This document shows, one piece after another, positions 17,269 to 62,764 of a DNA stretch of 64,000 nucleotides. Positions within the stretch are counted from its first letter, which is position 1; every line of letters begins with the position of its first letter. The notes beneath the pieces were generated by a model. That model ran no database searches. It had not been told where the DNA came from and worked only from the letters and a program-made list of their open reading frames with translations. The stretch is from a virus (lineage: Duplodnaviria > Caudoviricetes). The stretch covers positions 96,001-160,000 of the IMG/VR virus record IMGVR_UViG_3300014204_000112. The stretch is one strand, 5' to 3'. Both the position numbers and the translations under genes were made by a program.

Positions 17269-19245
17269 TTACTTTATTGATAGGCAGTCCTCTTTCGCCT
17301 TTTTCGTGATCACCAGGTGATCTCCTTCTTTGACCGTATTGTCTACATAGGCCTCGGCTATGAGGTCTTCCAGGTGTGACTGAATGACTCGTTGTAATGG
17401 TCGAGCTCCGAACTTTTCATCGAAACCCTTTTCGATAAGGAACTCTTTTGCTTTGTCCGTGATTTCGACGAAGTAACCGTTCTCTTCAACTCTTTCCTTC
17501 AGGCTTGCAAGTTCGATGTCAATGATCTTTCCGATGTCGTCTTTCGTGAGAGAGTTGAACGTGATGATGTCATCGATACGATTGATGAATTCTGGGGCGA
17601 ATTGCTTGCTTACTGCCTTTCTTAGAACTTCGTTTGCAAGTTGCTTTTGCCTTTCTACTTGGTCGGCAGTTGCGAAACCTATTCCAGTTCCAAAATCTTG
17701 CAAAGTTTTGATACCAACATTCGATGTCATAATGATCACTGTGTTCTTGAAGTCGACAGTTTTACCCAAACCGTCAGTCAAACGACCATCATCGAGAACT
17801 TGGAGTAGCATGTTGAATATGGATGGATCAGCTTTCTCAATTTCGTCGAGAAGGACCACTGAATATGGTTTGCGTCTTACTTTTTCGGTCAACTGGCCTC
17901 CGCTTTCGTATCCAACGTATCCCGGAGGAGCTCCAGTGATTCGACTGCCTGAGAATTTTTCGCTATATTCGGACATGTCAATGCGGATCAGAGCATCTTC
18001 TGAGTTGAATAGGAACTTTGCTAACTGTTTTGCTAGCTCGCTCTTACCTACACCGCTTGGTCCAATGAAAAGGAACGTACCGATGGGCTTTTTCTTTGAT
18101 TTTAAGCCTGCACGTGAACGTTTTATCGCTCTCGTTAGCTTATGGATGGCATCGTCCTGACCGACTATGAATTTTCTTAGGGATTCTTCCATTCCAGCCA
18201 ACTTTTGTATGTCAGTTCCAGTCATTTTGCTGACTGGGATGCCAGTAATGTTCGAAACTAGCTTAGCAATATCGTCTTCGTTCACTGCAAGGCGATTCGC
18301 TTTAAGAGTTTTTTCCCATTCTCTTTTTGCTTCCGCTATTTCTTCGGCAACCGCTAATGCTCTATCACGTAATTTCGCCGCAGCTTCATACTGCTGTGAA
18401 TTGACAGCATCGTTCTTTTGTTTGATGATTCCTGCTAGCTTTTCTTCGAGATTTTTGATGTTTGCGGGAACAACCACACCGCTTATGTGAACTGTCGCTC
18501 CAGCTTCGTCCATCAGGTCGATTGCTTTGTCCGGAAGCCACCGATCTTGAATGTATCGTTCACTGTACTTGACGCAAGCGTCCAATGCATCGACTGTGTA
18601 CCTCACGGAGTGATGGTCTTCGTACTTTTCTTTGATATTCTCGAGGATTTCTCGAGTTTCTTCCGATGTCGGAGGATTTATGATGATCTGTTGGAACCTA
18701 CGGCTTAAAGCGCCATCCTTTTCGATGGAATTACGAAATTCGTCGATAGTTGTAGCTCCAATGCACTGAATTTCACCACGAGCTAATGCAGGCTTGAGAA
18801 TATTGGCAGCATCGAGCGATCCGCTAGCTGCTCCGGCTCCAACTAGAGCATGAACTTCGTCAATGAACAGAATCATGTTCCTATTGTTCTGAACTTCCTG
18901 AATTATCTGTTCCATGCGCTGTTCGAACTCACCGCGATACTTAGTCCCGGCAACGAGGTTGGCAAGTTCGAGAGCAATGATTCTTTTTCCCAATAGAACC
19001 CTTGGACAGGTCCGGTTAGTGATCATTGCTGCTAAACCCTCCACTATCGCAGTCTTACCTACTCCAGGTTCGCCAATTAGTAATGGATTGTTCTTTTTGC
19101 GTCTCGAAAGTATCTGACTACACCTTTTTATCTCGGCAATTCGCCCAACAACTGGGTCAAGCTTACCGTCGAGTGCAAGTTGAGTCAAATCCTTACCAAA
19201 TGCGTCTACTAGTGGAGTTTTAGTATTTTGCGCTATCTTTACCAT
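17269..19245 (-). CDS. ClpC-like AAA+ chaperone lacking the N-terminal Clp repeat domain
   Basis: GEPGVGKT and GPSGVGKS Walker A; RRKKNNP; YEAAAKLRD UVR motif; FGARPL. Confidence 0.9.
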   Translation of the reverse strand: MVKIAQNTKTPLVDAFGKDLTQLALDGKLDPVVGRIAEIKRCSQILSRRKKNNPLLIGEPGVGKTAIVEGLAAMITNRTCPRVLLGKRIIALELANLVAGTKYRGEFEQRMEQIIQEVQNNRNMILFIDEVHALVGAGAASGSLDAANILKPALARGEIQCIGATTIDEFRNSIEKDGALSRRFQQIIINPPTSEETREILENIKEKYEDHHSVRYTVDALDACVKYSERYIQDRWLPDKAIDLMDEAGATVHISGVVVPANIKNLEEKLAGIIKQKNDAVNSQQYEAAAKLRDRALAVAEEIAEAKREWEKTLKANRLAVNEDDIAKLVSNITGIPVSKMTGTDIQKLAGMEESLRKFIVGQDDAIHKLTRAIKRSRAGLKSKKKPIGTFLFIGPSGVGKSELAKQLAKFLFNSEDALIRIDMSEYSEKFSGSRITGAPPGYVGYESGGQLTEKVRRKPYSVVLLDEIEKADPSIFNMLLQVLDDGRLTDGLGKTVDFKNTVIIMTSNVGIKTLQDFGTGIGFATADQVERQKQLANEVLRKAVSKQFAPEFINRIDDIITFNSLTKDDIGKIIDIELASLKERVEENGYFVEITDKAKEFLIEKGFDEKFGARPLQRVIQSHLEDLIAEAYVDNTVKEGDHLVITKKAKEDCLSIK

Positions 19246-38333: not shown

Positions 38334-38513
38334 CCGGCTAACTTTTTCTTCTTATACTATGGACAGAAACAAAAGTTAGTCGGCTGATCAAATTTACCGG
38401 ATGATTATGCAATGTTGGTTGCCGAAAGAGTTACTGCAACTGGAACAGCTGTGTAAGTAGGAGTGGTGAAAGTGTAAGGTCAGCCACCGAACCTGGGTGA
38501 TAAAAAAAATTTG

Positions 38514-38586
38514 AGAGTCCTGTGGGGCTCGAACCCACGACCACGGTTTTAGAGACCGCTGCTCTAACCACTAAAGCTAAGGACTC
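38514..38586 (-). tRNA. amber suppressor tRNA (anticodon CUA)
   Basis: GAGTCCT/AGGACTC acceptor; GCGGT-CTCTAAA-ACCGT; GTTCGAG T loop. Confidence 0.85.
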
Positions 38587-44123: not shown

Positions 44124-44251
44124 CCGGAGAACATTGGAAAGAGTTGTTTTTGTTGCAAAAAGCGGATTCAAACCGCTGACATATTGTCCCCAAAACAATT
44201 GCCCTATCAGCTGGGCGATTTTCGCGAAGTAACTCTTGACCTTGCTACCGG
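44124..44251 (-). ncRNA. Y-RNA-like #1: conserved helix extending the acceptor stem of a tRNA(UGG)-like body
   Basis: UAGCAA..AGAGUUACUUCG / AACUCU..UUCU; D, anticodon and T arms in normal order. Confidence 0.7.
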
Positions 44252-44529: not shown

Positions 44530-44657
44530 TTGGGAGAATGGGACAAGGGCTTTACGCCTCTCGGCGTTCGGCCGGACTTGAACCGGCGATCCATTGTGTT
44601 GCGAACAATTGCTTAAACCAACTAAGCTACGAAGTATCCCTACGCGTTGCTACCCAA
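44530..44657 (-). ncRNA. Y-RNA-like #2: helix on the acceptor side of a tRNA-like body
   Basis: UAGCAA..AGGGAUACUUCG / CCCU..AUUCUC (covarying); GGUUCAAGUCC T arm. Confidence 0.7.
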
Positions 44658-45380: not shown

Positions 45381-47009
45381 TTAGATTACGATCTTACGTA
45401 CCTTGTCCAGGTGGTATGTAGGATTGAATTCGACGTTGGCGATGTCGTCGAACATCGAGAAGCCGTAACCGTAGTAGAAACGGACCTTGTCACCGATCAG
45501 CTGAGTTGTGCCGTAGGATGCCAAGTCTACAGAGTAGACGTATGGGTTTCCGACGTTCCTCAGGTAGTTCGTGTACGAAGAGTACGTGTTTCCACGGTTG
45601 CATTCGTTGTCAGAGAGGATGAACACCCTGTCGTACGCCTTTCCGGAACGTGCTGCCAGATCCCAAGCGGTGCTTAGGTTGGTTCCACCAAGGTTAGCAT
45701 TGAACGACCTTGCGATCGAGAATACGTCCTGGTTTGCGTTCCATGGGGTGAAGTGAGCGCTCGATCCGAACTGAATAACGTCAGCATTGGTTGCCTTCGC
45801 GATTGTTGCTCCGATCAAGGATGCCTTGTCAGCACATGACGTTGAGTACTGAGTCTTCCTGTTAGGGTCGACCATCTTCGTGGTCATGGATCCGGACCTG
45901 TCGATGATAACGAGGTTCCTTCCTGGCAATGCTTCCGCAAGGTTTGGAACGGATGCTTCGTAACCGATCAACAGTGCCTGTGCGATCTTCCTTCCGTCCA
46001 TCTTCGAGCCGAATTCTGCGAGCAGAATTTCGCCGGCCATGTCGATCTGGTAAGGCATGATCTTTGCCTGCCTGATAAGGTTTGGGTCCGACAGAACTGC
46101 GCACAGCTTGTCAATCGTTGCACGATCGGAGACCGTGTTCAGAATGCTCCTGATGTTACGCAGAGCTGCAAGAGTACCGAGCTTACCTTCGGTCAACAGA
46201 GCTCCCCAGTTTTCAGCCTTAGCTTCCTTGAGGATTTCTGCACCTTCAGCCTTGGTGATCTTACCTGCCTTTACGGCCTTTGCAACTTCCTGACCTGCGT
46301 CAGAGTTAGCAACTTCCCAGGTGTCGGCGGATACAGCCAAGCCCTTGATAACGGCATCGATTGCAGATACCCTTTCGCCCTTGAATTCAACGAATGCCCT
46401 CGACTGCTTTGGGTCAGGGTGAACGAGGTTGATAACGTCGATCAATGCTGACTTGTACTTCAGGATCGAGTATGCGTCGAGCCTTTCGATTGCATCAGCA
46501 AAACCCTTCTTCATAGAGTTGGTTGCCTTCGTCTTGTTCATAACCGAGAAACAGGCGATGATTTCGGCCATGTCGTCCGGACGGAAAATGGTTCCACCAG
46601 ACTGGTTCTTCTTGTTCCACAGTGAGTAGAACCTCTTCGCCCATTCGAGACCAGCGCAGTAAGGAGCGAGGTAGCTTGCTGCGAGGTGGTTGATCGACCT
46701 CATACCTTCACCAACGCAACGTGAGTACACGATGCACTGTGCGGTTAGGTAAGGATCTTCCTTTGCACAGGCAGTAACGATTCCCTTGAGTTCCCTCATG
46801 GTTTCATTTTCTGACCTGTAGAACTGGTTTTCCAGCTTCAAGGTGTTGAGCATTGTGATCAGTCTCAACCACTTGTCGATCGCATAAGCCGCGTGGCCCG
46901 AACGATTGACAGTGTTAGGCGTAGGAACTGCGTTAGCAGCTACTAACTTCGCCTTAGGTGCCGTCTTGGCAAGCTTAGTACGAAGATTTGCGTTTCTGAA
47001 CTTTGTCAT
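45381..47009 (-). CDS. Ro60/Rsr-like TROVE-domain RNA-binding protein with C-terminal vWA domain
   Basis: TVNRSGHAAY, FYRSE, GMRS, RPDD, LVHP, AALRNIR, IDRSGSM, GGT, ILSDNE, VDLASYG. Confidence 0.85.
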   Translation of the reverse strand: MTKFRNANLRTKLAKTAPKAKLVAANAVPTPNTVNRSGHAAYAIDKWLRLITMLNTLKLENQFYRSENETMRELKGIVTACAKEDPYLTAQCIVYSRCVGEGMRSINHLAASYLAPYCAGLEWAKRFYSLWNKKNQSGGTIFRPDDMAEIIACFSVMNKTKATNSMKKGFADAIERLDAYSILKYKSALIDVINLVHPDPKQSRAFVEFKGERVSAIDAVIKGLAVSADTWEVANSDAGQEVAKAVKAGKITKAEGAEILKEAKAENWGALLTEGKLGTLAALRNIRSILNTVSDRATIDKLCAVLSDPNLIRQAKIMPYQIDMAGEILLAEFGSKMDGRKIAQALLIGYEASVPNLAEALPGRNLVIIDRSGSMTTKMVDPNRKTQYSTSCADKASLIGATIAKATNADVIQFGSSAHFTPWNANQDVFSIARSFNANLGGTNLSTAWDLAARSGKAYDRVFILSDNECNRGNTYSSYTNYLRNVGNPYVYSVDLASYGTTQLIGDKVRFYYGYGFSMFDDIANVEFNPTYHLDKVRKIVI

Positions 47010-47051: not shown

Positions 47052-47612
47052 CTACTCATTGGTCTCTTCGCGCGAAAATATTCCAATATCTTTTTTCCTA
47101 CGGTGCTTTGCACTTTCGGACATTTTTGCTTTAGTTTCAGGCGAATGGGTTCTTCCTGTCCAATCGCACGGTTTTATTTTTCCTTCTTTATGCAAGCGTT
47201 TGAAAATATCGGAATTTCTGTCTTTTACTTCTTTTCTAAATTCCGGATCTTCTTTTAATTTTTTTGATCTAGCAAATCCGCCTGCTACTGCTCCTTTTTT
47301 ACAACCTTTCGGCGAAATAAATCCGCCGCCGCCGCCATTAACCAAATTCATACATAATCGGTCAGTTAGAAGCTCTTCATTTACCAATTGGTGTTCTCTG
47401 TCTTTCAGTTGTTCCAAATTGGGTAAAAATTCTAAGATTTCCTTAGTATGATTTTCCAATCCGTACTTATTGATAGAGTACTTTAGTTTTCTACCGCTTC
47501 CCATGTAACCATCATGTATATTTGAGGTTGCATGCATTCCTATGTAATACTTTTCAGTTACTTTACAAGTAATTTTGTAAATGTAAAAGATTGAATTAGG
47601 TTTTCTTGGCAT
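47052..47612 (-). CDS. GIY-YIG homing endonuclease
   Basis: YIYKITC...YYIGMH, YMGSG; paralog of 54664 and 55779. Confidence 0.9.
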   Translation of the reverse strand: MPRKPNSIFYIYKITCKVTEKYYIGMHATSNIHDGYMGSGRKLKYSINKYGLENHTKEILEFLPNLEQLKDREHQLVNEELLTDRLCMNLVNGGGGGFISPKGCKKGAVAGGFARSKKLKEDPEFRKEVKDRNSDIFKRLHKEGKIKPCDWTGRTHSPETKAKMSESAKHRRKKDIGIFSREETNE

Positions 47613-49392: not shown

Positions 49393-49550
49393 AAAGCAAA
49401 GAATGTTTCAAACAGCGTTTTTCTAATAGCGCTCTAGCCGTTGAGCTATCTGGGCATGGTCTTAAAAATTAGAGCCCAGAGCCGGATTCGAACCGACAAC
49501 CTCTCTCTTGGAATGAGAATCGAAGTAACTGTTCAGATTACTATTGCTTT
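49393..49550 (-). ncRNA. Y-RNA-like #3: YrlA topology (T arm, loop-closed acceptor stem, D arm; helix at anticodon position)
   Basis: UAGUAA..ACAGUUACUUCG; GGUUCGAAUCC precedes UCUGGGC/GCCCAGA and UAGCUCAACGGCUAGAGC. Confidence 0.8.
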
Positions 49551-52689: not shown

Positions 52690-52882
52690 TTAATCGTTTC
52701 GTAATTGGACTTCTGTTTCTCATCTAACATTTATCTTAGCCTCAACCCGACTATCATTGAATTGCTGACCTTCTAAGTCTGTTTGAGTTGCACCAATGTC
52801 GTATAACGTCTTTCGACTTCAACAACCAGCAAAGGTGGCACCAATTTCCTCAGTTTCCCGCGTTAGATACTTTCGCCTAATG
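52690..52882 (-). ncRNA. rnpB: minimal RNase P RNA (catalytic domain only)
   Basis: GAGGAAAUUGG and ACAGAAGUCCAAUUAC form a covaried P4; P2 AUCUAAC/GUUAGAU; AGAUAAAU J18/2; P6 GCUG/CAGC. Confidence 0.7.
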
Positions 52883-55639: not shown

Positions 55640-55710
55640 GGAGAGAAAATCGGTAGAGTTGTTTGTTGTAAAACCAAAATTTACGAAGTAACTCTTTCCT
55701 TTACTACTCC
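55640..55710 (-). ncRNA. Y-RNA-like #4: helix only, no tRNA domain
   Basis: GGAGUAGUAA..AGAGUUACUUCG / AACUCUACCGAUUUUCUCUCC. Confidence 0.7.
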
Positions 55711-55713
55711 TAG

Positions 55714-55788
55714 TGGATACATGTGGGCTTCGAACCCACGACCTCCTGATTGCAAAACAGGCGCTCTTGCCATCTGAGCTAATGACCC
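55714..55788 (-). tRNA. tRNA-Ala(UGC)
   Basis: CCTGT-TTTGCAA-TCAGG. Confidence 0.8.
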
Positions 55789-56549: not shown

Positions 56550-56659
56550 AAGTAGAGAAAGTCGGAAGAGATAACAGGCGGTTTCGACACCGCGACTTTT
56601 GTTTAAGAGACAAATACTGGACTCCCAGCTCGAAGTAACTCTTTCCATTACTACTACTT
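56550..56659 (-). ncRNA. Y-RNA-like #5: helix in place of the acceptor stem, Lys(CUU)-like anticodon arm
   Basis: UAGUAA..AGAGUUACUUCG / CUCUUCCGACUUUCUC; UUUGU-CUCUUAA-ACAAA. Confidence 0.7.
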
Positions 56660-56661
56660 TG

Positions 56662-59207: not shown

Positions 59208-59316
59208 TGATTTGAGAATGGTAAAAAGAGTTTTTTACTAAGCAAGGTTTGGTGCTTGGTGTTGGATTCGAACCAACGATAACCATCGATGTATCTCTTT
59301 TTTTTGCTACAAATCA
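59208..59316 (-). ncRNA. Y-RNA-like #6: helix plus T arm and loop-closed acceptor only
   Basis: UAGCAA..AGAGAUACAUCG / ACUCUUUUUACCAUUCUC; GUUGG-UUCGAAU-CCAAC. Confidence 0.65.
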
Positions 59317-59968: not shown

Positions 59969-60044
59969 TGGTAGGCTCGAAGGGACTTGAACCCTTGACT
60001 CCCGCCTTAAAAGGGCGGTACTCTACCAACTGAGTTACGAACCC
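59969..60044 (-). tRNA. tRNA-Lys(UUU)
   Basis: CCGCC-CTTTTAA-GGCGG; CCA encoded. Confidence 0.85.
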
Positions 60045-60460
60045 GTAATCGCTTCTCGAATCTTTTGTTTATGTTCATCCGATTTAGCTTTACCCCTATT
60101 TCCTTTACCACCGTTTGACGAACGTTTTCTCAAAAGTTCTTTAGCTTTAACTTTGCCATGTTTATCAATCATTCGTTGATAGATTGATGGCGCTCCATTT
60201 TCGTATTCGTCAATTTTATTATCTGACTTAGTCCCCCAATACATGTGATTAGGATTACTACATTTTGGATTGTTACAGCCGTGGCAAACAACGATGCTAT
60301 TTCCATTGACTGGCATTGTCGTATCGTAGTGGTATGCAACCAGAGCAACTAACTGAGTAGAGTATTTCAATCCACGTTCGTGGCAAGGTTCCTCTAACTT
60401 TAGCATTTGTTTTCTTTGTGCTCTAGTGTTTTCGATTACAAAATTTTCAACTGATTTCAT
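60035..60460 (-). CDS. HNH endonuclease (NUMOD3 tail)
   Basis: VCHGCNNPKCSNPNHMYWGTKSDN. Confidence 0.8.
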   Translation of the reverse strand: MKSVENFVIENTRAQRKQMLKLEEPCHERGLKYSTQLVALVAYHYDTTMPVNGNSIVVCHGCNNPKCSNPNHMYWGTKSDNKIDEYENGAPSIYQRMIDKHGKVKAKELLRKRSSNGGKGNRGKAKSDEHKQKIREAITGS

Positions 60461-60790: not shown

Positions 60791-60925
60791 CAAGAACACT
60801 GGATAGAGGAATTTGATTGATGTCAATTTTACAGATTGATGACTTAGACCGCTCGTCCAACGACCCGAAAGCCGTACGGGATTCGAACCCGTGATCGAAG
60901 TAACTCTATGACCTTACTATGCTTG
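60791..60925 (-). ncRNA. Y-RNA-like #7: permuted tRNA-Tyr(GUA)-like body opened at the variable arm
   Basis: AGAGUUACUUCG, T arm, acceptor closed by a UUCG-containing loop, D arm, UCAAU-CUGUAAA-AUUGA, then CUCUAUCCAGUGUUCU. Confidence 0.75.
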
Positions 60926-61409
60926 ATTTCTTATTTACAATGTTTTTTGCTCCGAACGTATGTGTTTGTGAATGACAGTTTGGACACAAAATTCTCAGAT
61001 TTTGAAGTCTGTGATTTCGGTTATTTCCGTCAATATGATCGACTTGTAATGATAAAGGTAGACCGTTCCATTCTGCTGGAGTTCCGCATTCTTCACATCG
61101 ATCCTCTTTATAACCTTCCAGTATCAATCGTCTTTTTAATTTCGATGTCGGATATTCTGGGTGTTTTCCTTCAAGAATGTCTAGCAATTTGAATGCTACT
61201 CCTCCGGTTCTTTTCATTTTTCGTAACTTGACTTCAATTTGTATTCCTAACAAATTGCAATATTTGGTTAGGGTTACTCTACTGATTCCAGTTACTTCTG
61301 AAAGTTCCAAAACAGAGCTAACGTTCTTGGCATTTTCATTGATTTTGTCTACGATTTCTTGGTTTAGCCGCATTGCTTTATTTTTATTTATATGCGGTCT
61401 GTTTACCAA
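60906..61409 (-). CDS. HNH homing endonuclease
   Basis: CEECG, LQVDHIDG, NLRILCPNCHSQT. Confidence 0.9.
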   Translation of the reverse strand: MVNRPHINKNKAMRLNQEIVDKINENAKNVSSVLELSEVTGISRVTLTKYCNLLGIQIEVKLRKMKRTGGVAFKLLDILEGKHPEYPTSKLKRRLILEGYKEDRCEECGTPAEWNGLPLSLQVDHIDGNNRNHRLQNLRILCPNCHSQTHTFGAKNIVNKKSSIVRS

Positions 61410-61426
61410 AACCTCTGTAAACTACG

Positions 61427-61508
61427 TGGGATGTGATGGAGTCGAACCACCCGAGCTTTCACAACAGATTTACAGTCTGCCCCGCTACCATCTACGGAAT
61501 AACATCCC
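61427..61508 (-). tRNA. tRNA-Tyr(GUA)
   Basis: GCAGA-CTGTAAA-TCTGT. Confidence 0.85.
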
Positions 61509-61549
61509 ATTGTCCCTCTATTTTTGATTTCCTGGAGGGTGCGGAAGGT

Positions 61550-61670
61550 GCGGGAAGGTGAGATTCGAACTCACGAGATCAAATTGACAGTTTGATTGTT
61601 TCCGATGCAACTCTTATCATTGCTATCCTTTCAGAAGAAATTCGACAGAGCGTTTTGAATTTCTTCCCCG
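61550..61670 (-). ncRNA. Y-RNA-like #8: tRNA(GUC)-like with helix replacing the D arm
   Basis: CUCUGUCGAAUUUCUUC-loop-GAUAGCAAUGAUAAGAGUUGCAUCG; AUCAAA-CUGUCAA-UUUGAU; T arm. Confidence 0.75.
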
Positions 61671-61706
61671 AGTGTACCTGTTTTTACTGTACAGGAGAAC
61701 AGTGTA

Positions 61707-61826
61707 GGAGGGGGAAGTTGGATTTGAACCAACGATCAAATTTTCAAGGTTTGATTGTGCCGATGAAACTCTTATCATTGCTATCATCGCTGAAGAAAGT
61801 CGACAGAGTCGTTTTTACTTTCCCCC
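61707..61826 (-). ncRNA. Y-RNA-like #9: tRNA(UGA)-like with helix replacing the D arm
   Basis: Same architecture as #8; anticodon loop CUUGAAA. Confidence 0.75.
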
Positions 61827-61842
61827 ATGTTTTATTAAGTAT

Positions 61843-61967
61843 TGGCGAGGGAGGCTGGATTTGAACCAACATAATCAAGTTTTCAATTTGACTGTTACCG
61901 ATGCAACTCTATTCATTGCTATCATTGCTGAAGAAAGTCGGATAGAGCATTGTGTATATGCTCCCTC
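61843..61967 (-). ncRNA. Y-RNA-like #10: tRNA(GAA)-like with helix replacing the D arm and CCA end
   Basis: GAGGGAG/CUCCCUC-GCCA acceptor; anticodon loop UUGAAAA. Confidence 0.75.
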
Positions 61968-61975
61968 ATGTATTT

Positions 61976-62764
61976 TTATAGGTTCCAAGATTTTCCTTTG
62001 TACTCCCGATTCACTCTTCGGTATGAAGAGATGATCCCTTGTGAATGAAGATCGTAACCGTTGAGTATTCTTATATTCATTGGAAATTGGTCCCATTTTG
62101 CGAAATCTTTATCTGTAGGATATCCTTTAATTTCGATGTAAACATTATCCTCTAAAAGATAAAAATCTGGCGTGTAATACCTTTTTTTTCCATCAAAGAA
62201 GTATTCGAATTTTTCAGTAGGTCTTCGCCACTTGATCGAATTTGCATCCAACCATTTAGCATATTCAACTTCCCATATTCCTTGAAATTTTTTTCCAGCA
62301 TATTCATGAGTTCTAGACTTAGAAAAGGATAAATGCCAATTATCATTTTTAACGTTTTCTTTTATTGTATTAGCAATAGTATTTCGATGATCTATTGATA
62401 AATGTTTTCCTTTAAAAAAAGGTATGAATGCACCGGATTTAAGGTTAGTATTAAAAGTATCTGACCCTTTTTTAACTCTAGCATCGGTTTCTTTGGTTAA
62501 TCCGTGATTCCATGAAGGTTTACCACCAAGATTATTATTTTTCCAATTAATTCCATCTTCATGATTTCTCCAAATGTGAGAAATGATTCCTAATTTAGAA
62601 TAAACTTTACCACAGTATGGGCATTTATAAGTTCCATCATTTTGTAAATAATTAATGCTCTTTAATCTAATTTTCTTAGTTCCACAAGATTTTTCATGTT
62701 TAGATATATTACTTAAACTTATCTTAATGCCGCATTTTTTACAGTTAGTAGTGTGTCGGTTCAT
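61976..62764 (-). CDS. PD-(D/E)xK putative homing endonuclease with zinc fingers
   Basis: CPYCGK, QGIWEV, YTPDFYL, YIEIKGY. Confidence 0.8.
   Translation of the reverse strand: MNRHTTNCKKCGIKISLSNISKHEKSCGTKKIRLKSINYLQNDGTYKCPYCGKVYSKLGIISHIWRNHEDGINWKNNNLGGKPSWNHGLTKETDARVKKGSDTFNTNLKSGAFIPFFKGKHLSIDHRNTIANTIKENVKNDNWHLSFSKSRTHEYAGKKFQGIWEVEYAKWLDANSIKWRRPTEKFEYFFDGKKRYYTPDFYLLEDNVYIEIKGYPTDKDFAKWDQFPMNIRILNGYDLHSQGIISSYRRVNREYKGKSWNL

What the first reader, a model, noticed from the sequence alone, without database searches (positions are those of the whole stretch)
61550..61967. Tandem trio of tRNAs whose D arm is replaced by a ~60-nt Y-like hairpin
Seen: three ~120-nt units keep a free acceptor stem, T arm and anticodon arm but carry different anticodon loops (GUC, UGA, GAA) on near-identical scaffolds; #10 encodes CCA. 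The two helix strands are in reverse order relative to the other copies and are closed by a loop. Inference: duplication followed by anticodon diversification suggests selection on anticodon identity, and these RNAs might be aminoacylated.
Basis: partly seen in the sequence, partly recalled or inferred. Interest (0 to 1): 0.75.

Follow-up and report, generated by a model that had tools for sequence, protein, structure and literature searches.

The report
Inside-out Y-RNA/tRNA hybrids in phage
Three tandem small RNA genes in a large phage's tRNA cluster are tRNA-shaped RNAs with normal free ends whose D arm is replaced by the hairpin that marks the likely RNA partners of the phage's own Ro60 protein, a new wiring of the known Ro60/Y-RNA tRNA-mimic system.

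Summary
On the minus strand at 61547-61967 lie three units of about 120 nt. Each has a 7-bp acceptor stem with free ends, an anticodon-type arm and a T arm. In place of a D arm there is an A-rich linker plus a 42-43-nt hairpin capped by a GNRA tetraloop. Unit A encodes GCCA.

Fifteen distinct homologues come from phage contigs, and most of those large enough to judge encode a Ro60-like protein. They give 95.7% paired cells and compensatory changes at 22 of 32 pairs.

The hairpin and the UUNCNUCG motif after it are the same module that closes the other Y-RNA-like elements of this phage. That module clusters beside Ro60 genes, always on the Ro60 strand. In three distant lineages a unit of this type lies 240-600 nt upstream of Ro60. 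The units match a circular permutation of the phage's YrlA-like RNA.

Best reading: Y-RNA-type Ro60 partners built in native tRNA topology. Ro60 binding, processing and charging are untested inferences.

The loops copy real tRNA loops (Asp, Ser, Phe-like here; Tyr, Met, Trp, His elsewhere), but unit B's loop has 9 nt.

This scan has noted related Ro60 "handles" on phage tRNAs in other genomes. This wiring, with the handle at the D-arm site, was not among them or in the papers I searched.

The parts
61843..61967 (-). Unit A: whole tRNA/Y hybrid. Acceptor 5' strand is 61961-61967 (GAGGGAG), acceptor 3' strand is 61847-61853 (CUCCCUC), followed by G73-CCA at 61843-61846.
   Evidence: Model R1 scores it 129.1 bits.
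61906..61948 (-). Unit A Y-type hairpin. GCAA tetraloop at 61925-61928. Followed by the motif UUGCAUCGG at 61898-61906.
   Evidence: Hairpin pairs covary.
61873..61893 (-). Unit A anticodon-type arm. Loop UUGAAAA at 61880-61886, triplet GAA at 61882-61884. The loop-closing pair is an A.C mismatch.
61854..61870 (-). Unit A T arm: GUUGG-UUCAAAU-CCAGC.
   Evidence: All five T-stem pairs covary.
61706..61826 (-). Unit B: whole hybrid. Acceptor strands at 61820-61826 (GGGGGAA) and 61710-61716 (UUCCCCC). Tail is UCCU, so no CCA is encoded.
   Evidence: R1 scores it 113.3 bits.
61768..61809 (-). Unit B Y-type hairpin. GCGA tetraloop at 61787-61790. Followed by UUUCAUCGG at 61760-61768.
61735..61755 (-). 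Unit B anticodon-type arm. 6-bp stem AUCAAA/UUUGAU with a 9-nt loop CCUUGAAAA at 61741-61749. The inner 7 nt, CUUGAAA, equal the loop of the phage's tRNA-Ser(UGA).
61717..61733 (-). Unit B T arm: GUUGG-UUCAAAU-CCAAC.
61547..61669 (-). Unit C: whole hybrid. Acceptor strands at 61663-61669 (GGGGAAG) and 61551-61557 (CUUCCCG). The 3' strand has one C fewer than the orthologues' CUUCCCC, which leaves a G1xG72 mismatch or a bulge. Tail is CACC.
   Evidence: R1 scores it 129.3 bits.
61610..61651 (-). Unit C Y-type hairpin. GAAA tetraloop at 61629-61632. Followed by UUGCAUCGG at 61602-61610.
61578..61596 (-). Unit C anticodon-type arm. 6-bp stem with 7-nt loop CUGUCAA at 61584-61590 and triplet GUC at 61586-61588. 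The same loop occurs in the orthologues in L002 and L017.
61558..61574 (-). Unit C T arm: GUGAG-UUCGAAU-CUCAC.
61677..61695 (-). Spacer hairpin CCUGU-ACAGUAAAA-ACAGG between units B and C. In relatives the stem changes in a compensatory way (CUCUC/GAGAG, GUACC/GGUAC) while the loop ACNGUAAAA is kept.
45381..47009 (-). Ro60-like (TROVE + vWA) protein gene, 542 aa. It is the presumed protein partner.
   Evidence: Pfam TROVE, VWA_2 and vWA_Ro60. Near-full-length match to Thermus phage phiLo Ro60 (9KOP/9L5Y), E 8e-9. phrog_850, E 4e-30.
49402..49526 (-). YrlA-like RNA of the same phage, in ordinary Y topology: closed acceptor hairpin, with the Y stem formed by the two ends. The trio corresponds to a circular permutation of it.
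   Evidence: Rfam YrlA 31.9 bits, below the gathering score of 69. Permutation alignment.

Best explanation
The three units are genes for small structured RNAs of the Ro60/Y-RNA kind, built in native tRNA topology.

Shown: each folds into an acceptor stem with free 5' and 3' ends, an anticodon-type arm and a T arm. The D arm is replaced by an A-rich linker and a GNRA-capped hairpin. That hairpin, with the UUNCNUCG motif after it, is the same module that closes the phage's other Y-RNA-like elements. The module is tied to Ro60 genes across a family of large phages. The linear order of a unit equals that of the phage's YrlA-like RNA opened at its acceptor loop and closed at its Y stem, minus the D arm.

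Inferred: the units are cut out of the tRNA-array transcript like tRNAs, by RNase P at the 5' end and by trimming, and where needed host CCA addition, at the 3' end. The invariant part of the hairpin (UUUCU/AGYAA with a bulged U, plus UUNCNUCG) docks the phage Ro60. The tRNA-like body, with its free acceptor end and a loop that copies a real anticodon loop, engages a tRNA-recognising factor and so tethers Ro60 to it, as Y RNAs tether Ro60 to effectors. The GG of UCGG probably substitutes for G18-G19 in the contact with the T loop.
For: Structure:
- On 15 distinct units, 95.7% of cells are paired, against at most 50% when the partners are slid.
- 22 of 32 pairs carry changes on both sides, and 0 of 500 shuffles reach any measure.
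- Compensatory changes occur at 4 of 7 acceptor-stem pairs, all 5 T-stem pairs, 6 of 7 pairs at the hairpin base and all 3 pairs under the tetraloop.
- RNAalifold finds the same helices on its own.
- The tRNA-like fold lies within about 0-3.5 kcal/mol of the MFE in ten of twelve units.
- The GNRA cap is present in all eleven close units and in the four divergent ones: GCAA in D1 and D2, GAAA in L177 and GCAA in L178.

Link to Y RNA:
- The hairpin strands match the terminal-stem strands of the six other elements in the window.
- One of those elements is a full-length but sub-threshold YrlA match.
- The permuted YrlA-like RNA aligns to the units with scores of 77-87. The native order scores 59-61.5, which equals the shuffled mean of about 60 (sd 6).

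Link to Ro60:
- The window encodes a Ro60 homologue.
- The motif ASRG-WUAC-WUCG occurs 56 times on the Ro60 strand and 0 times on the opposite strand in 424 kb around 28 Ro60 genes. It occurs 5 times in 1.07 Mb of control loci.
- In 17 of the 28 loci a copy lies 95-806 nt after the Ro60 stop.
- Units of this permuted type lie 240 nt (L167-169), 430 nt (L177, Ro60 37% identical) and 600 nt (L178) upstream of Ro60.
- Every contig of 18 kb or more that holds a full-length unit also encodes Ro60.

tRNA-like ends:
- N-CCA is encoded in 8 of 15 units (winA, L001u1, L002u1, L017u1, L017u2, L008u1, D1, D2; not in L177 or L178), against 10 of 42 ordinary tRNAs of the array.
- The 5' flanks (CAU|G) resemble those of the array's tRNAs.

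Precedent in print:
- Y RNAs lie next to Ro60 in bacteria and phages, and M. smegmatis YrlA is cut by RNase P and receives CCA (PMC4201824).
- YrlA is described as a circularly permuted tRNA without a free CCA end or an anticodon loop (bioRxiv 10.1101/312249).
- Phage phiLo Ro60 binds phage Y-like RNAs and host PNPase (PMC12135203).
Against: - There are no expression, processing or binding data.
- In this window the trio lies 14.5 kb from the Ro60 gene.
- The CGA(A) motif used in print to recognise Ro60 sites sits in the hairpin's internal loop in these three units. It is not kept in the divergent units (GCCG, GGUA, GGC), and it lies on the strand opposite to the one in published Y RNAs (PMC4201824).
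- Rfam's YrlA model does not match the trio at all.
- Unit C has a defective acceptor stem, and for it an alternative helix is the MFE.
- The set of homologues is small and comes from related phages. The alignments used for counting were fitted to the model.
Confidence: 0.55

Rival explanations
1. They are working tRNAs. They are charged and used in translation (Asp, Phe, Ser or others), and the hairpin is only an unusual substitute for the D arm or an added Ro60 handle.
For: - 7-bp acceptor stem, T loop UUCRAAU, and encoded CCA in unit A and in 8 of 15 family members.
- Loops equal or nearly equal to those of the phage's own tRNAs.
- In four of five lineages with clean 7-nt loops, the discriminator base matches the cognate phage tRNA: Asp G73, Tyr A73, Met A73, Trp G73.
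- From general knowledge, tRNAs without a D arm do work in some mitochondria.
Against: - Unit B and four relatives have 8-9-nt loops.
- Unit A has G73 where the phage's tRNA-Phe has A73.
- No long variable arm is present for Ser or Tyr.
- Three lineages have lost the T-loop consensus but keep the hairpin.
- Canonical tRNAs with the same three anticodons sit in the same array.
- What is most conserved is the hairpin, not the tRNA body.
Confidence: 0.12
2. They are decoys or sponges for host enzymes that read anticodon loops, such as anticodon nucleases of anti-phage defence systems or tRNA-modifying enzymes. Ro60 may or may not serve as a protective or recruiting partner.
For: - The loops copy real anticodon loops while the rest of the body departs from tRNA.
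- Half of the distinct 7-nt loops are of the U-G-U-N type (GUC, GUA twice, GUG).
- Copy number and loop type differ between close relatives next to homing-endonuclease genes, as expected for arms-race cargo.
- Phage tRNAs are known to counter tRNA-cleaving defences (PMC11555353, PMC13096335).
- A Ro60-like phage protein counters the Ppl defence (PMC11482910).
Against: - No nuclease or defence system is identified, and the host is unknown.
- The most widespread loop motif (UUGAAA) is conserved rather than diversifying.
- Decoy function does not explain the conserved acceptor end or the encoded CCA.
Confidence: 0.15
3. The hairpin module binds some other phage or host protein, or is purely architectural, and its closeness to Ro60 genes only reflects shared residence in the tRNA gene cluster.
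For: - Ro60 genes in these phages sit inside tRNA arrays, so anything in the arrays is 'near Ro60'.
- The published CGAA signature is not conserved in the module.
- This scan has reported tRNA-mimic RNAs paired with a different protein (DUF7873) elsewhere (unchecked note).
Against: - The module sits at a preferred place 95-806 nt after the Ro60 stop in 17 of 28 loci, and always on the Ro60 strand.
- Permuted units lie directly upstream of Ro60 even where Ro60 is only 37% identical.
- One module-bearing element is a YrlA-like RNA.
Confidence: 0.1
4. They are decaying duplicates of tRNA or Y-RNA genes with no function, or the conservation reflects an overlapping protein-coding frame.
For: - Unit C has lost one base of its acceptor 3' strand.
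- Some relatives have degenerate T loops.
- Mechanical ORFs of 44-90 aa overlap the region.
Against: - Compensatory changes occur at 22 of 32 pairs over phages whose Ro60 is only 37% identical.
- The GNRA cap is retained in all units.
- Units differ in length by numbers of bases that are not multiples of three (125, 121 and 123 nt). Variation falls in stems as paired changes, which is not the pattern of a coding frame.
Confidence: 0.03

Closest known systems
YrlA (Y RNA-like A, Rfam RF02553) with bacterial or phage Ro60/Rsr (Chen et al. 2014, PMC4201824; Wang et al. 2018, bioRxiv 10.1101/312249)
   Same: Both are small RNAs that combine a Ro60-type stem module with a tRNA-like body carrying a canonical T loop. 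Both are genomically linked to a Ro60 gene. The same phage has a YrlA-like element that bears the same module.
   Different: In YrlA the 5' and 3' ends form the Ro60 stem, the acceptor stem is a closed hairpin, and there is no free CCA end and no anticodon loop. In the trio the acceptor stem has the free ends (CCA encoded in unit A), an anticodon-type arm is present, the Ro60-type stem is an internal GNRA-capped hairpin, and the D arm is missing. The Rfam model gives no match to the trio.
[quoted passage not shown]
   Same: A Y RNA with a 7-bp acceptor stem that ends up with a free, CCA-tailed acceptor end while still carrying the Ro60 stem.
   Different: There the free end arises by cleavage and gives a two-piece RNA. 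Here the topology is written into the gene as a single chain.
Phage Ro60 systems: Thermus phage phiLo Ro60 with Yrl1/Yrl2 (PMC12135203) and Bas63 gp130 (PMC11482910)
   Same: A phage-encoded Ro60 homologue with phage-encoded partner RNAs. The window's protein matches phiLo Ro60 over nearly its whole length. The Bas63 paper suggests that some 'tRNA genes' next to its Ro60-like gene may be Y RNAs.
   Different: The phiLo Yrls are ordinary stem-bulge-stem Y RNAs. The Bas63 paper shows no structures. Neither describes a handle in the D-arm position or tandem copies with different anticodon-type loops.
Ordinary tRNA (Rfam RF00005) and tRNAs that lack a D arm
   Same: Acceptor stem, T arm, anticodon-type loop with U33 and A37, encoded CCA in some, and placement inside a tRNA gene array.
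   Different: No D stem, a variable region of only 1-3 nt, and a 6-bp anticodon stem. The units fall below the Rfam threshold (23.9 and 18.0 against 29 bits) and ARAGORN does not call them.
T4 RNA C and RNA D, small stable RNAs from the T4 tRNA region with unknown roles (PMC3014915)
   Same: Non-tRNA small RNA genes embedded in a phage tRNA cluster.
   Different: No sequence or structural comparison was made here, and I know of no Ro60 gene in T4 (from memory, not checked here). This is only a positional analogy.

Membership tests
Y RNA / YrlA (RF02553) | Reaches the Rfam gathering score for YrlA | tested here: not met
   No YrlA match to 61300-62100 even at E<=10. The related element at 49402-49526 scores 31.9 bits against a threshold of 69.
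Y RNA / YrlA (RF02553) | Encoded next to a Ro60/Rsr gene | tested here: met
   A Ro60 homologue lies in the window at 45381-47009. The trio itself is 14.5 kb away, but homologous units lie 240-600 nt upstream of Ro60 in L167-169, L177 and L178. The shared module is enriched beside Ro60 genes.
Y RNA / YrlA (RF02553) | Ro60-binding stem formed by the RNA's 5' and 3' ends, with a GNCGAA/CGAA motif on the 5' strand | tested here: not met
   The stem is an internal hairpin closed by GNRA. CGA(A/C) lies in the internal loop on the strand that corresponds to the 3' strand of the other elements, and it is not kept in the divergent units.
Y RNA / YrlA (RF02553) | tRNA-like domain with T arm and D arm, and an acceptor stem closed by a loop | tested here: not met
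   The T arm is present. The D stem is absent. The acceptor stem is open with free ends.
Y RNA / YrlA (RF02553) | Physically bound by Ro60 | not testable with these tools
   No RNA-protein prediction or experimental data are available.
tRNA (RF00005) | Four-arm cloverleaf recognised by tRNA models | tested here: not met
   Rfam tRNA gives 23.9 bits (unit C) and 18.0 bits (unit A) against a threshold of 29, and nothing for unit B. ARAGORN calls none. There is no D stem.
tRNA (RF00005) | 7-bp acceptor stem, discriminator base and 3' CCA | tested here: met
   Units A and B have perfect 7-bp stems. Unit C has 6 bp plus a mismatch. CCA is encoded in A only, but most of the array's ordinary tRNAs (32 of 42) also lack an encoded CCA.
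tRNA (RF00005) | 7-nt anticodon loop with U33 and a purine at position 37 | tested here: inconclusive
   Met in unit C (CUGUCAA) and unit A (UUGAAAA, with an A.C closing mismatch). Not met in unit B (9-nt CCUUGAAAA).
tRNA (RF00005) | Aminoacylation by a synthetase | not testable with these tools
   Only partial agreement of the discriminator bases with the cognate phage tRNAs.
Intron-containing tRNA | Removing the insert leaves a complete cloverleaf, and the insert has intron features (group I core or bulge-helix-bulge) | tested here: not met
   After removing the hairpin, only A-rich linker and UUGCAUCGG remain, with no D stem. Rfam finds no intron or ribozyme family.

The most novel reading that the evidence does not exclude
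The units are chargeable or anticodon-specific 'handled tRNAs': single-chain RNAs that carry a docking hairpin for phage Ro60 on a body with a real acceptor end and a real anticodon loop. Ro60, and whatever nuclease it recruits, would then be delivered in an anticodon-specific way to synthetases, ribosomes or host anticodon nucleases. This would be a Ro60-based counter-defence or tRNA-surveillance particle whose specificity is set by swapping the loop between tandem copies.
Probability: 0.2. Interest if true: 0.85.

Novelty: new variant of a known kind. Interest (0 to 1): 0.62.

Why it matters
What the tRNA-like half of bacterial and phage Y RNAs does is an open question. Known YrlA RNAs lack both the CCA end and the anticodon loop, so they give no hint about which tRNA-binding partner they engage.

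This family keeps both features and mounts the Ro60-type module as an internal hairpin. It exists as tandem copies that differ mainly in the anticodon-type loop. That makes several tests direct: does Ro60 bind the hairpin, are the RNAs cut by RNase P, CCA-tailed or charged, and does loop identity matter.

The family also shows that "tRNA counts" of large phages omit or mislabel a class of Ro60-linked RNAs. A Ro60-like phage protein has been linked to escape from a bacterial defence (PMC11482910), so these RNAs may matter for counter-defence too.

Tried and rejected
- blastn of 61400-62000 against 50,697 phage records matched only the neighbouring tRNA-Tyr.
- TRF found no long-period array because the units are too diverged.
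- The loose pattern TTTCTTCN6GATAGCAA in viral contigs returned mostly chance hits. I used those loci only as control loci.
- The promoter and terminator scan was at background level.
- I looked for linker-to-UUGCAUCGG pairing and for pairing between the internal-loop UCGR and the UCGG motif. Neither was consistent across units, so I dropped both (by eye).
- I rejected an intron reading: no cloverleaf is left after excision.
- I rejected a ribozyme reading (hammerhead, HDV-like and others): no Rfam match at E<=10 and no core motifs.
- I rejected a coding reading (see rival explanations).
- No CCA-adding enzyme (PF01743) or RtcB (PF01139) gene is in the 214-kb record, which is 83% complete. A self-contained phage repair or tailing pathway is therefore not supported.
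- Pfam scans of neighbouring ORFs gave homing endonucleases, a helicase, vWA and AAA proteins, and nothing related to tRNA.
Full report
CONTEXT. The window is bases 96001-160000 of a 213,922-bp viral contig. Its minus strand carries 42 ARAGORN-called tRNA genes between 31.6 and 63.1 kb. The finding lies between a homing-endonuclease-like ORF (61976-62764) and tRNA-Tyr (61426-61508), with an HNH endonuclease ORF beyond that (60906-61409).

THE OBSERVATION. Read on the minus strand, 61547-61967 holds three units: A 61843-61967, B 61706-61826 and C 61547-61669.
- Each starts with a purine-rich 7-mer that pairs with the 7 nt after a T arm. The pairs are GAGGGAG/CUCCCUC, GGGGGAA/UUCCCCC and GGGGAAG/CUUCCC-G.
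- Each has a T loop UUCRAAU and a 6-bp anticodon-type stem.
- The loops are CUGUCAA (C), UUGAAAA (A) and CCUUGAAAA (B, 9 nt).
- Unit A ends in G-CCA.
- Between the acceptor strand and the anticodon arm there is no D stem. Instead there is a 10-12-nt A-rich linker, then a 42-43-nt hairpin, then UUGCAUCGG.
- The hairpin reads (G/A)CUCU - GUC - GAN - UUUCU - UCN - GNRA - NGA - U - AGCAA - U - GAU - A - AGAG(U). That is four short helices separated by a one-base bulge, a 3x1 internal loop and a bulged U, closed by GCAA, GCGA or GAAA.
- Rfam's tRNA model sees only sub-threshold matches (23.9 and 18.0 bits against 29) and ARAGORN sees nothing.
The only qualifications are that unit B's loop is 9 nt and that the stretch GUU-GCAUCGGN-AAC can be read as a vestigial 3-bp D arm.

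IS IT MORE THAN CHANCE? The 19-nt core occurs three times against 0.01 expected.
- Pattern scans and a covariance model (R1) found homologous units only in related phage contigs: two each in L001, L002 (G001), L017 and L008 (G002).
- Single, more diverged units occur in G005/G006/G011 (D1), G013/G014 (D2), L177 and L178.
- On the 15 distinct units, 95.7% of cells form standard pairs, against at most 50% when partners are slid by 1-3 columns.
- 22 of 32 pairs carry compensatory changes, and no shuffle of 500 reaches any measure (smaller sets).
- Compensation occurs in every helix: acceptor 4 of 7 pairs, T stem 5 of 5, anticodon stem 4 of 6, hairpin base 6 of 7 (for example CUCU/AGAG to CACU/AGUG and CUAA/UUAG), and the three pairs under the tetraloop (UCN/NGA to CUG/CAG).
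- RNAalifold, run without my structure, recovers the acceptor, hairpin base, capped tip, anticodon and T helices.
- Caveats: the alignments were fitted to the model, and the phages are related.
- The invariant parts are the UUUCU/AGYAA helix with its Y.U mismatch, the bulged U, and UUNCNUCG. This pattern, with covarying stems around a fixed core, is what a protein-recognition site looks like.

WHAT THE HAIRPIN IS. Six other elements on the same strand (about 44124, 44530, 49393, 55640, 56550, 59208) carry the same two strands. There they form the terminal stem: (G)UAGYAA-N-NNN-A-ASAG-UUACUUCG at the 5' end and CUSU-NNN-...-UUUCU-(C)UAC at the 3' end.
- The element at 49402-49526 is a full-length, sub-threshold match to Rfam YrlA: 31.9 bits, E 1.9e-5 in a local search.
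- I cut that RNA open at its acceptor loop and closed its Y stem. The permuted sequence aligns with units A-C at scores of 77-87. The native order gives 59-61.5, which equals shuffled sequence (mean about 60, sd 6, maximum 80).
- Even the linker is shared: GAAAAACG|CUGU in that element and AAAACG|CUCU in the units.
- So the trio is the circular permutation of the phage's YrlA-like RNA, minus the D arm. Published work describes YrlA as a circularly permuted tRNA with a closed acceptor stem, no free CCA and no anticodon loop (bioRxiv 10.1101/312249). These units are the un-permuted form.

LINK TO Ro60. ORF 45381-47009 (minus strand, 542 aa) has TROVE, VWA_2 and Ro60-vWA signatures. It matches the Thermus phage phiLo Ro60 structure over residues 38-520 (E 8e-9) and phrog_850.
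- Twenty-eight viral loci encode relatives at 37-99% identity.
- In their 424 kb, the motif ASRG-WUAC-WUCG (the end of the module) occurs 56 times on the Ro60 strand and never on the other. It occurs 5 times in 1.07 Mb of unrelated viral loci.
- In 17 of the 28 loci a copy lies 95-806 nt after the Ro60 stop. In the window it occurs 8 times, all on the minus strand, against 0.18 expected.
- Units of the permuted type sit 240 nt upstream of Ro60 in L167-169, about 430 nt upstream in L177 and about 600 nt upstream in L178. In L177 and L178 Ro60 is only 37% identical.
- Adjacency to Ro60 is the criterion by which bacterial and phage Y RNAs were first identified (PMC4201824).
- Binding itself is inferred. 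The published CGAA signature is present in the internal loop of units A-C but not in the divergent units, and it lies on the other strand relative to published Y RNAs.

THE ANTICODON-TYPE LOOPS. Family loops are:
- CUGUCAA (C type, in three contigs), UUGAAAA (A), UUCCAAA, CUCAUAA, CUGUAAA, CAGUAAA, UUUGAAA and AUGUGAA.
- 8-9-nt versions around CUUGAAA in five units, including B.
- Seven of the eight 7-nt loops have U33 and all have A37-A38.
- Several are identical to the loops of the phage's own tRNAs: Ser CUUGAAA, Tyr CUGUAAA, Met CUCAUAA. Asp differs by one base.
- GUA is retained between D1 and D2 although their stems differ.
- Several facts argue against ordinary decoding: the 8-9-nt loops, the recurrence of UUGAAA in distant lineages, the loss of the T-loop consensus in three lineages (L001u1, D1, L015), G73 in unit A where tRNA-Phe has A73, the lack of long variable arms, and the presence of canonical Asp, Phe and Ser(UGA) tRNAs in the same array.
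- GG in UCGG is absent in the three lineages with degenerate T loops and present in 10 of the 11 close-relative units with a canonical T loop. Three more distant units with a canonical T loop (D2, L177, L178) also lack it. This is weak evidence for an elbow contact.

ENDS AND PROCESSING. N-CCA is encoded in 8 of 15 units, against 10 of 42 ordinary tRNAs. The 5' flanks resemble those of the array's tRNAs. The record holds no CCA-adding enzyme or RtcB gene, so host enzymes would be needed. A 12-bp acceptor/T-stem stack is the known minimal substrate for RNase P and CCA addition (general knowledge), and M. smegmatis YrlA shows both reactions (PMC4201824).

AN UNEXPLAINED FEATURE. In every unit the 3' part of the acceptor 5' strand plus the first linker bases can pair with ...UUUCUUC of the hairpin, over 6-10 bp.
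- Each unit's own partner gives longer helices than foreign partners (permutation p about 0.007).
- That fold is the MFE for unit C and L001u2, but is 0.5-10 kcal/mol worse than the tRNA-like fold in the other ten units.
- It may be a co-transcriptional intermediate or a switch. It may also explain why the acceptor 5' strand stays all-purine.

VERDICT. These are real, conserved, structured RNA genes. The best reading is a Y-RNA-type partner of phage Ro60 in native tRNA topology (confidence 0.55).
- The rivals are true tRNAs, anticodon-nuclease decoys, and a different protein partner.
- Phage Ro60 with Y RNAs and the tRNA mimicry of Y RNAs are both known (PMC4201824, PMC12135203, PMC7824862). 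A preprint has guessed that some phage "tRNA genes" next to a Ro60-like gene are Y RNAs (PMC11482910).
- This scan has reported Ro60-type handles on phage tRNAs in other genomes.
- I found no description of a handle in the D-arm position with free CCA ends, or of tandem copies that differ in the loop. I therefore class it as a new variant of a known kind.

Noticed in passing
window 61652-61669 with 61633-61642 (unit C); the same regions in all units: The 3' part of the acceptor 5' strand plus the start of the linker is complementary to ...UUUCUUC of the hairpin (6-10 bp in every unit). Linker and internal-loop bases change together between lineages: AAAUUC/GAAUUU, AAAAC/GUUUU, AAAGU/ACUUU, AAUG/CGUU. 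This fold excludes both the acceptor stem and the upper hairpin, so it could be a switch or a folding intermediate.
   Followed up: partly
window 61677-61695 (minus strand): A small hairpin between units B and C has a conserved loop ACNGUAAAA. Its stem changes in a compensatory way in relatives (CCUGU/ACAGG, CUCUC/GAGAG, GUACC/GGUAC). Its function is unknown; it may be a processing signal.
   Followed up: partly
window 44124-44250, 44530-44655, 49393-49545, 55640-55715, 56550-56660, 59208-59310, about 60896 (all minus strand): Other elements carry the same Y-type module as their terminal stem, wrapped around tRNA-like bodies. Two lie just downstream of the Ro60 gene. ARAGORN calls one of them tRNA-Pro (44152-44226). 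An eighth motif copy at 60896-60907 and one at 17469-17480 were not examined.
   Followed up: partly
window 52710-52867 (minus strand): Partial, sub-threshold match to archaeal RNase P RNA (29.3 bits against 84; model positions 12-268 squeezed into 158 nt) inside the tRNA array. It may be another structured RNA or may be chance.
   Followed up: no
window 38513-38586 (minus strand): A tRNA with anticodon CUA (amber suppressor type; ARAGORN labels it Pyl). This hints that the phage may read TAG as sense in some genes.
   Followed up: no
window 60035-60460, 60906-61409, 61976-62764, 47052-47612 (minus strand): HNH, GIY-YIG and endonuclease-I-like homing endonuclease ORFs are interspersed in the array. 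Close relatives (Ro60 99% identical) carry two units instead of three with mosaic halves, which suggests endonuclease-driven reshuffling of these RNA genes.
   Followed up: partly
L178:9257-9402; L184:1501-1625; L179:1501-1621; window 61584-61590: Four of the eight distinct 7-nt loops are of the G-U-N type (GUC, GUA twice, GUG). These are the anticodons of the queuosine-family tRNAs. This may point to the partner that reads the loop.
   Followed up: no
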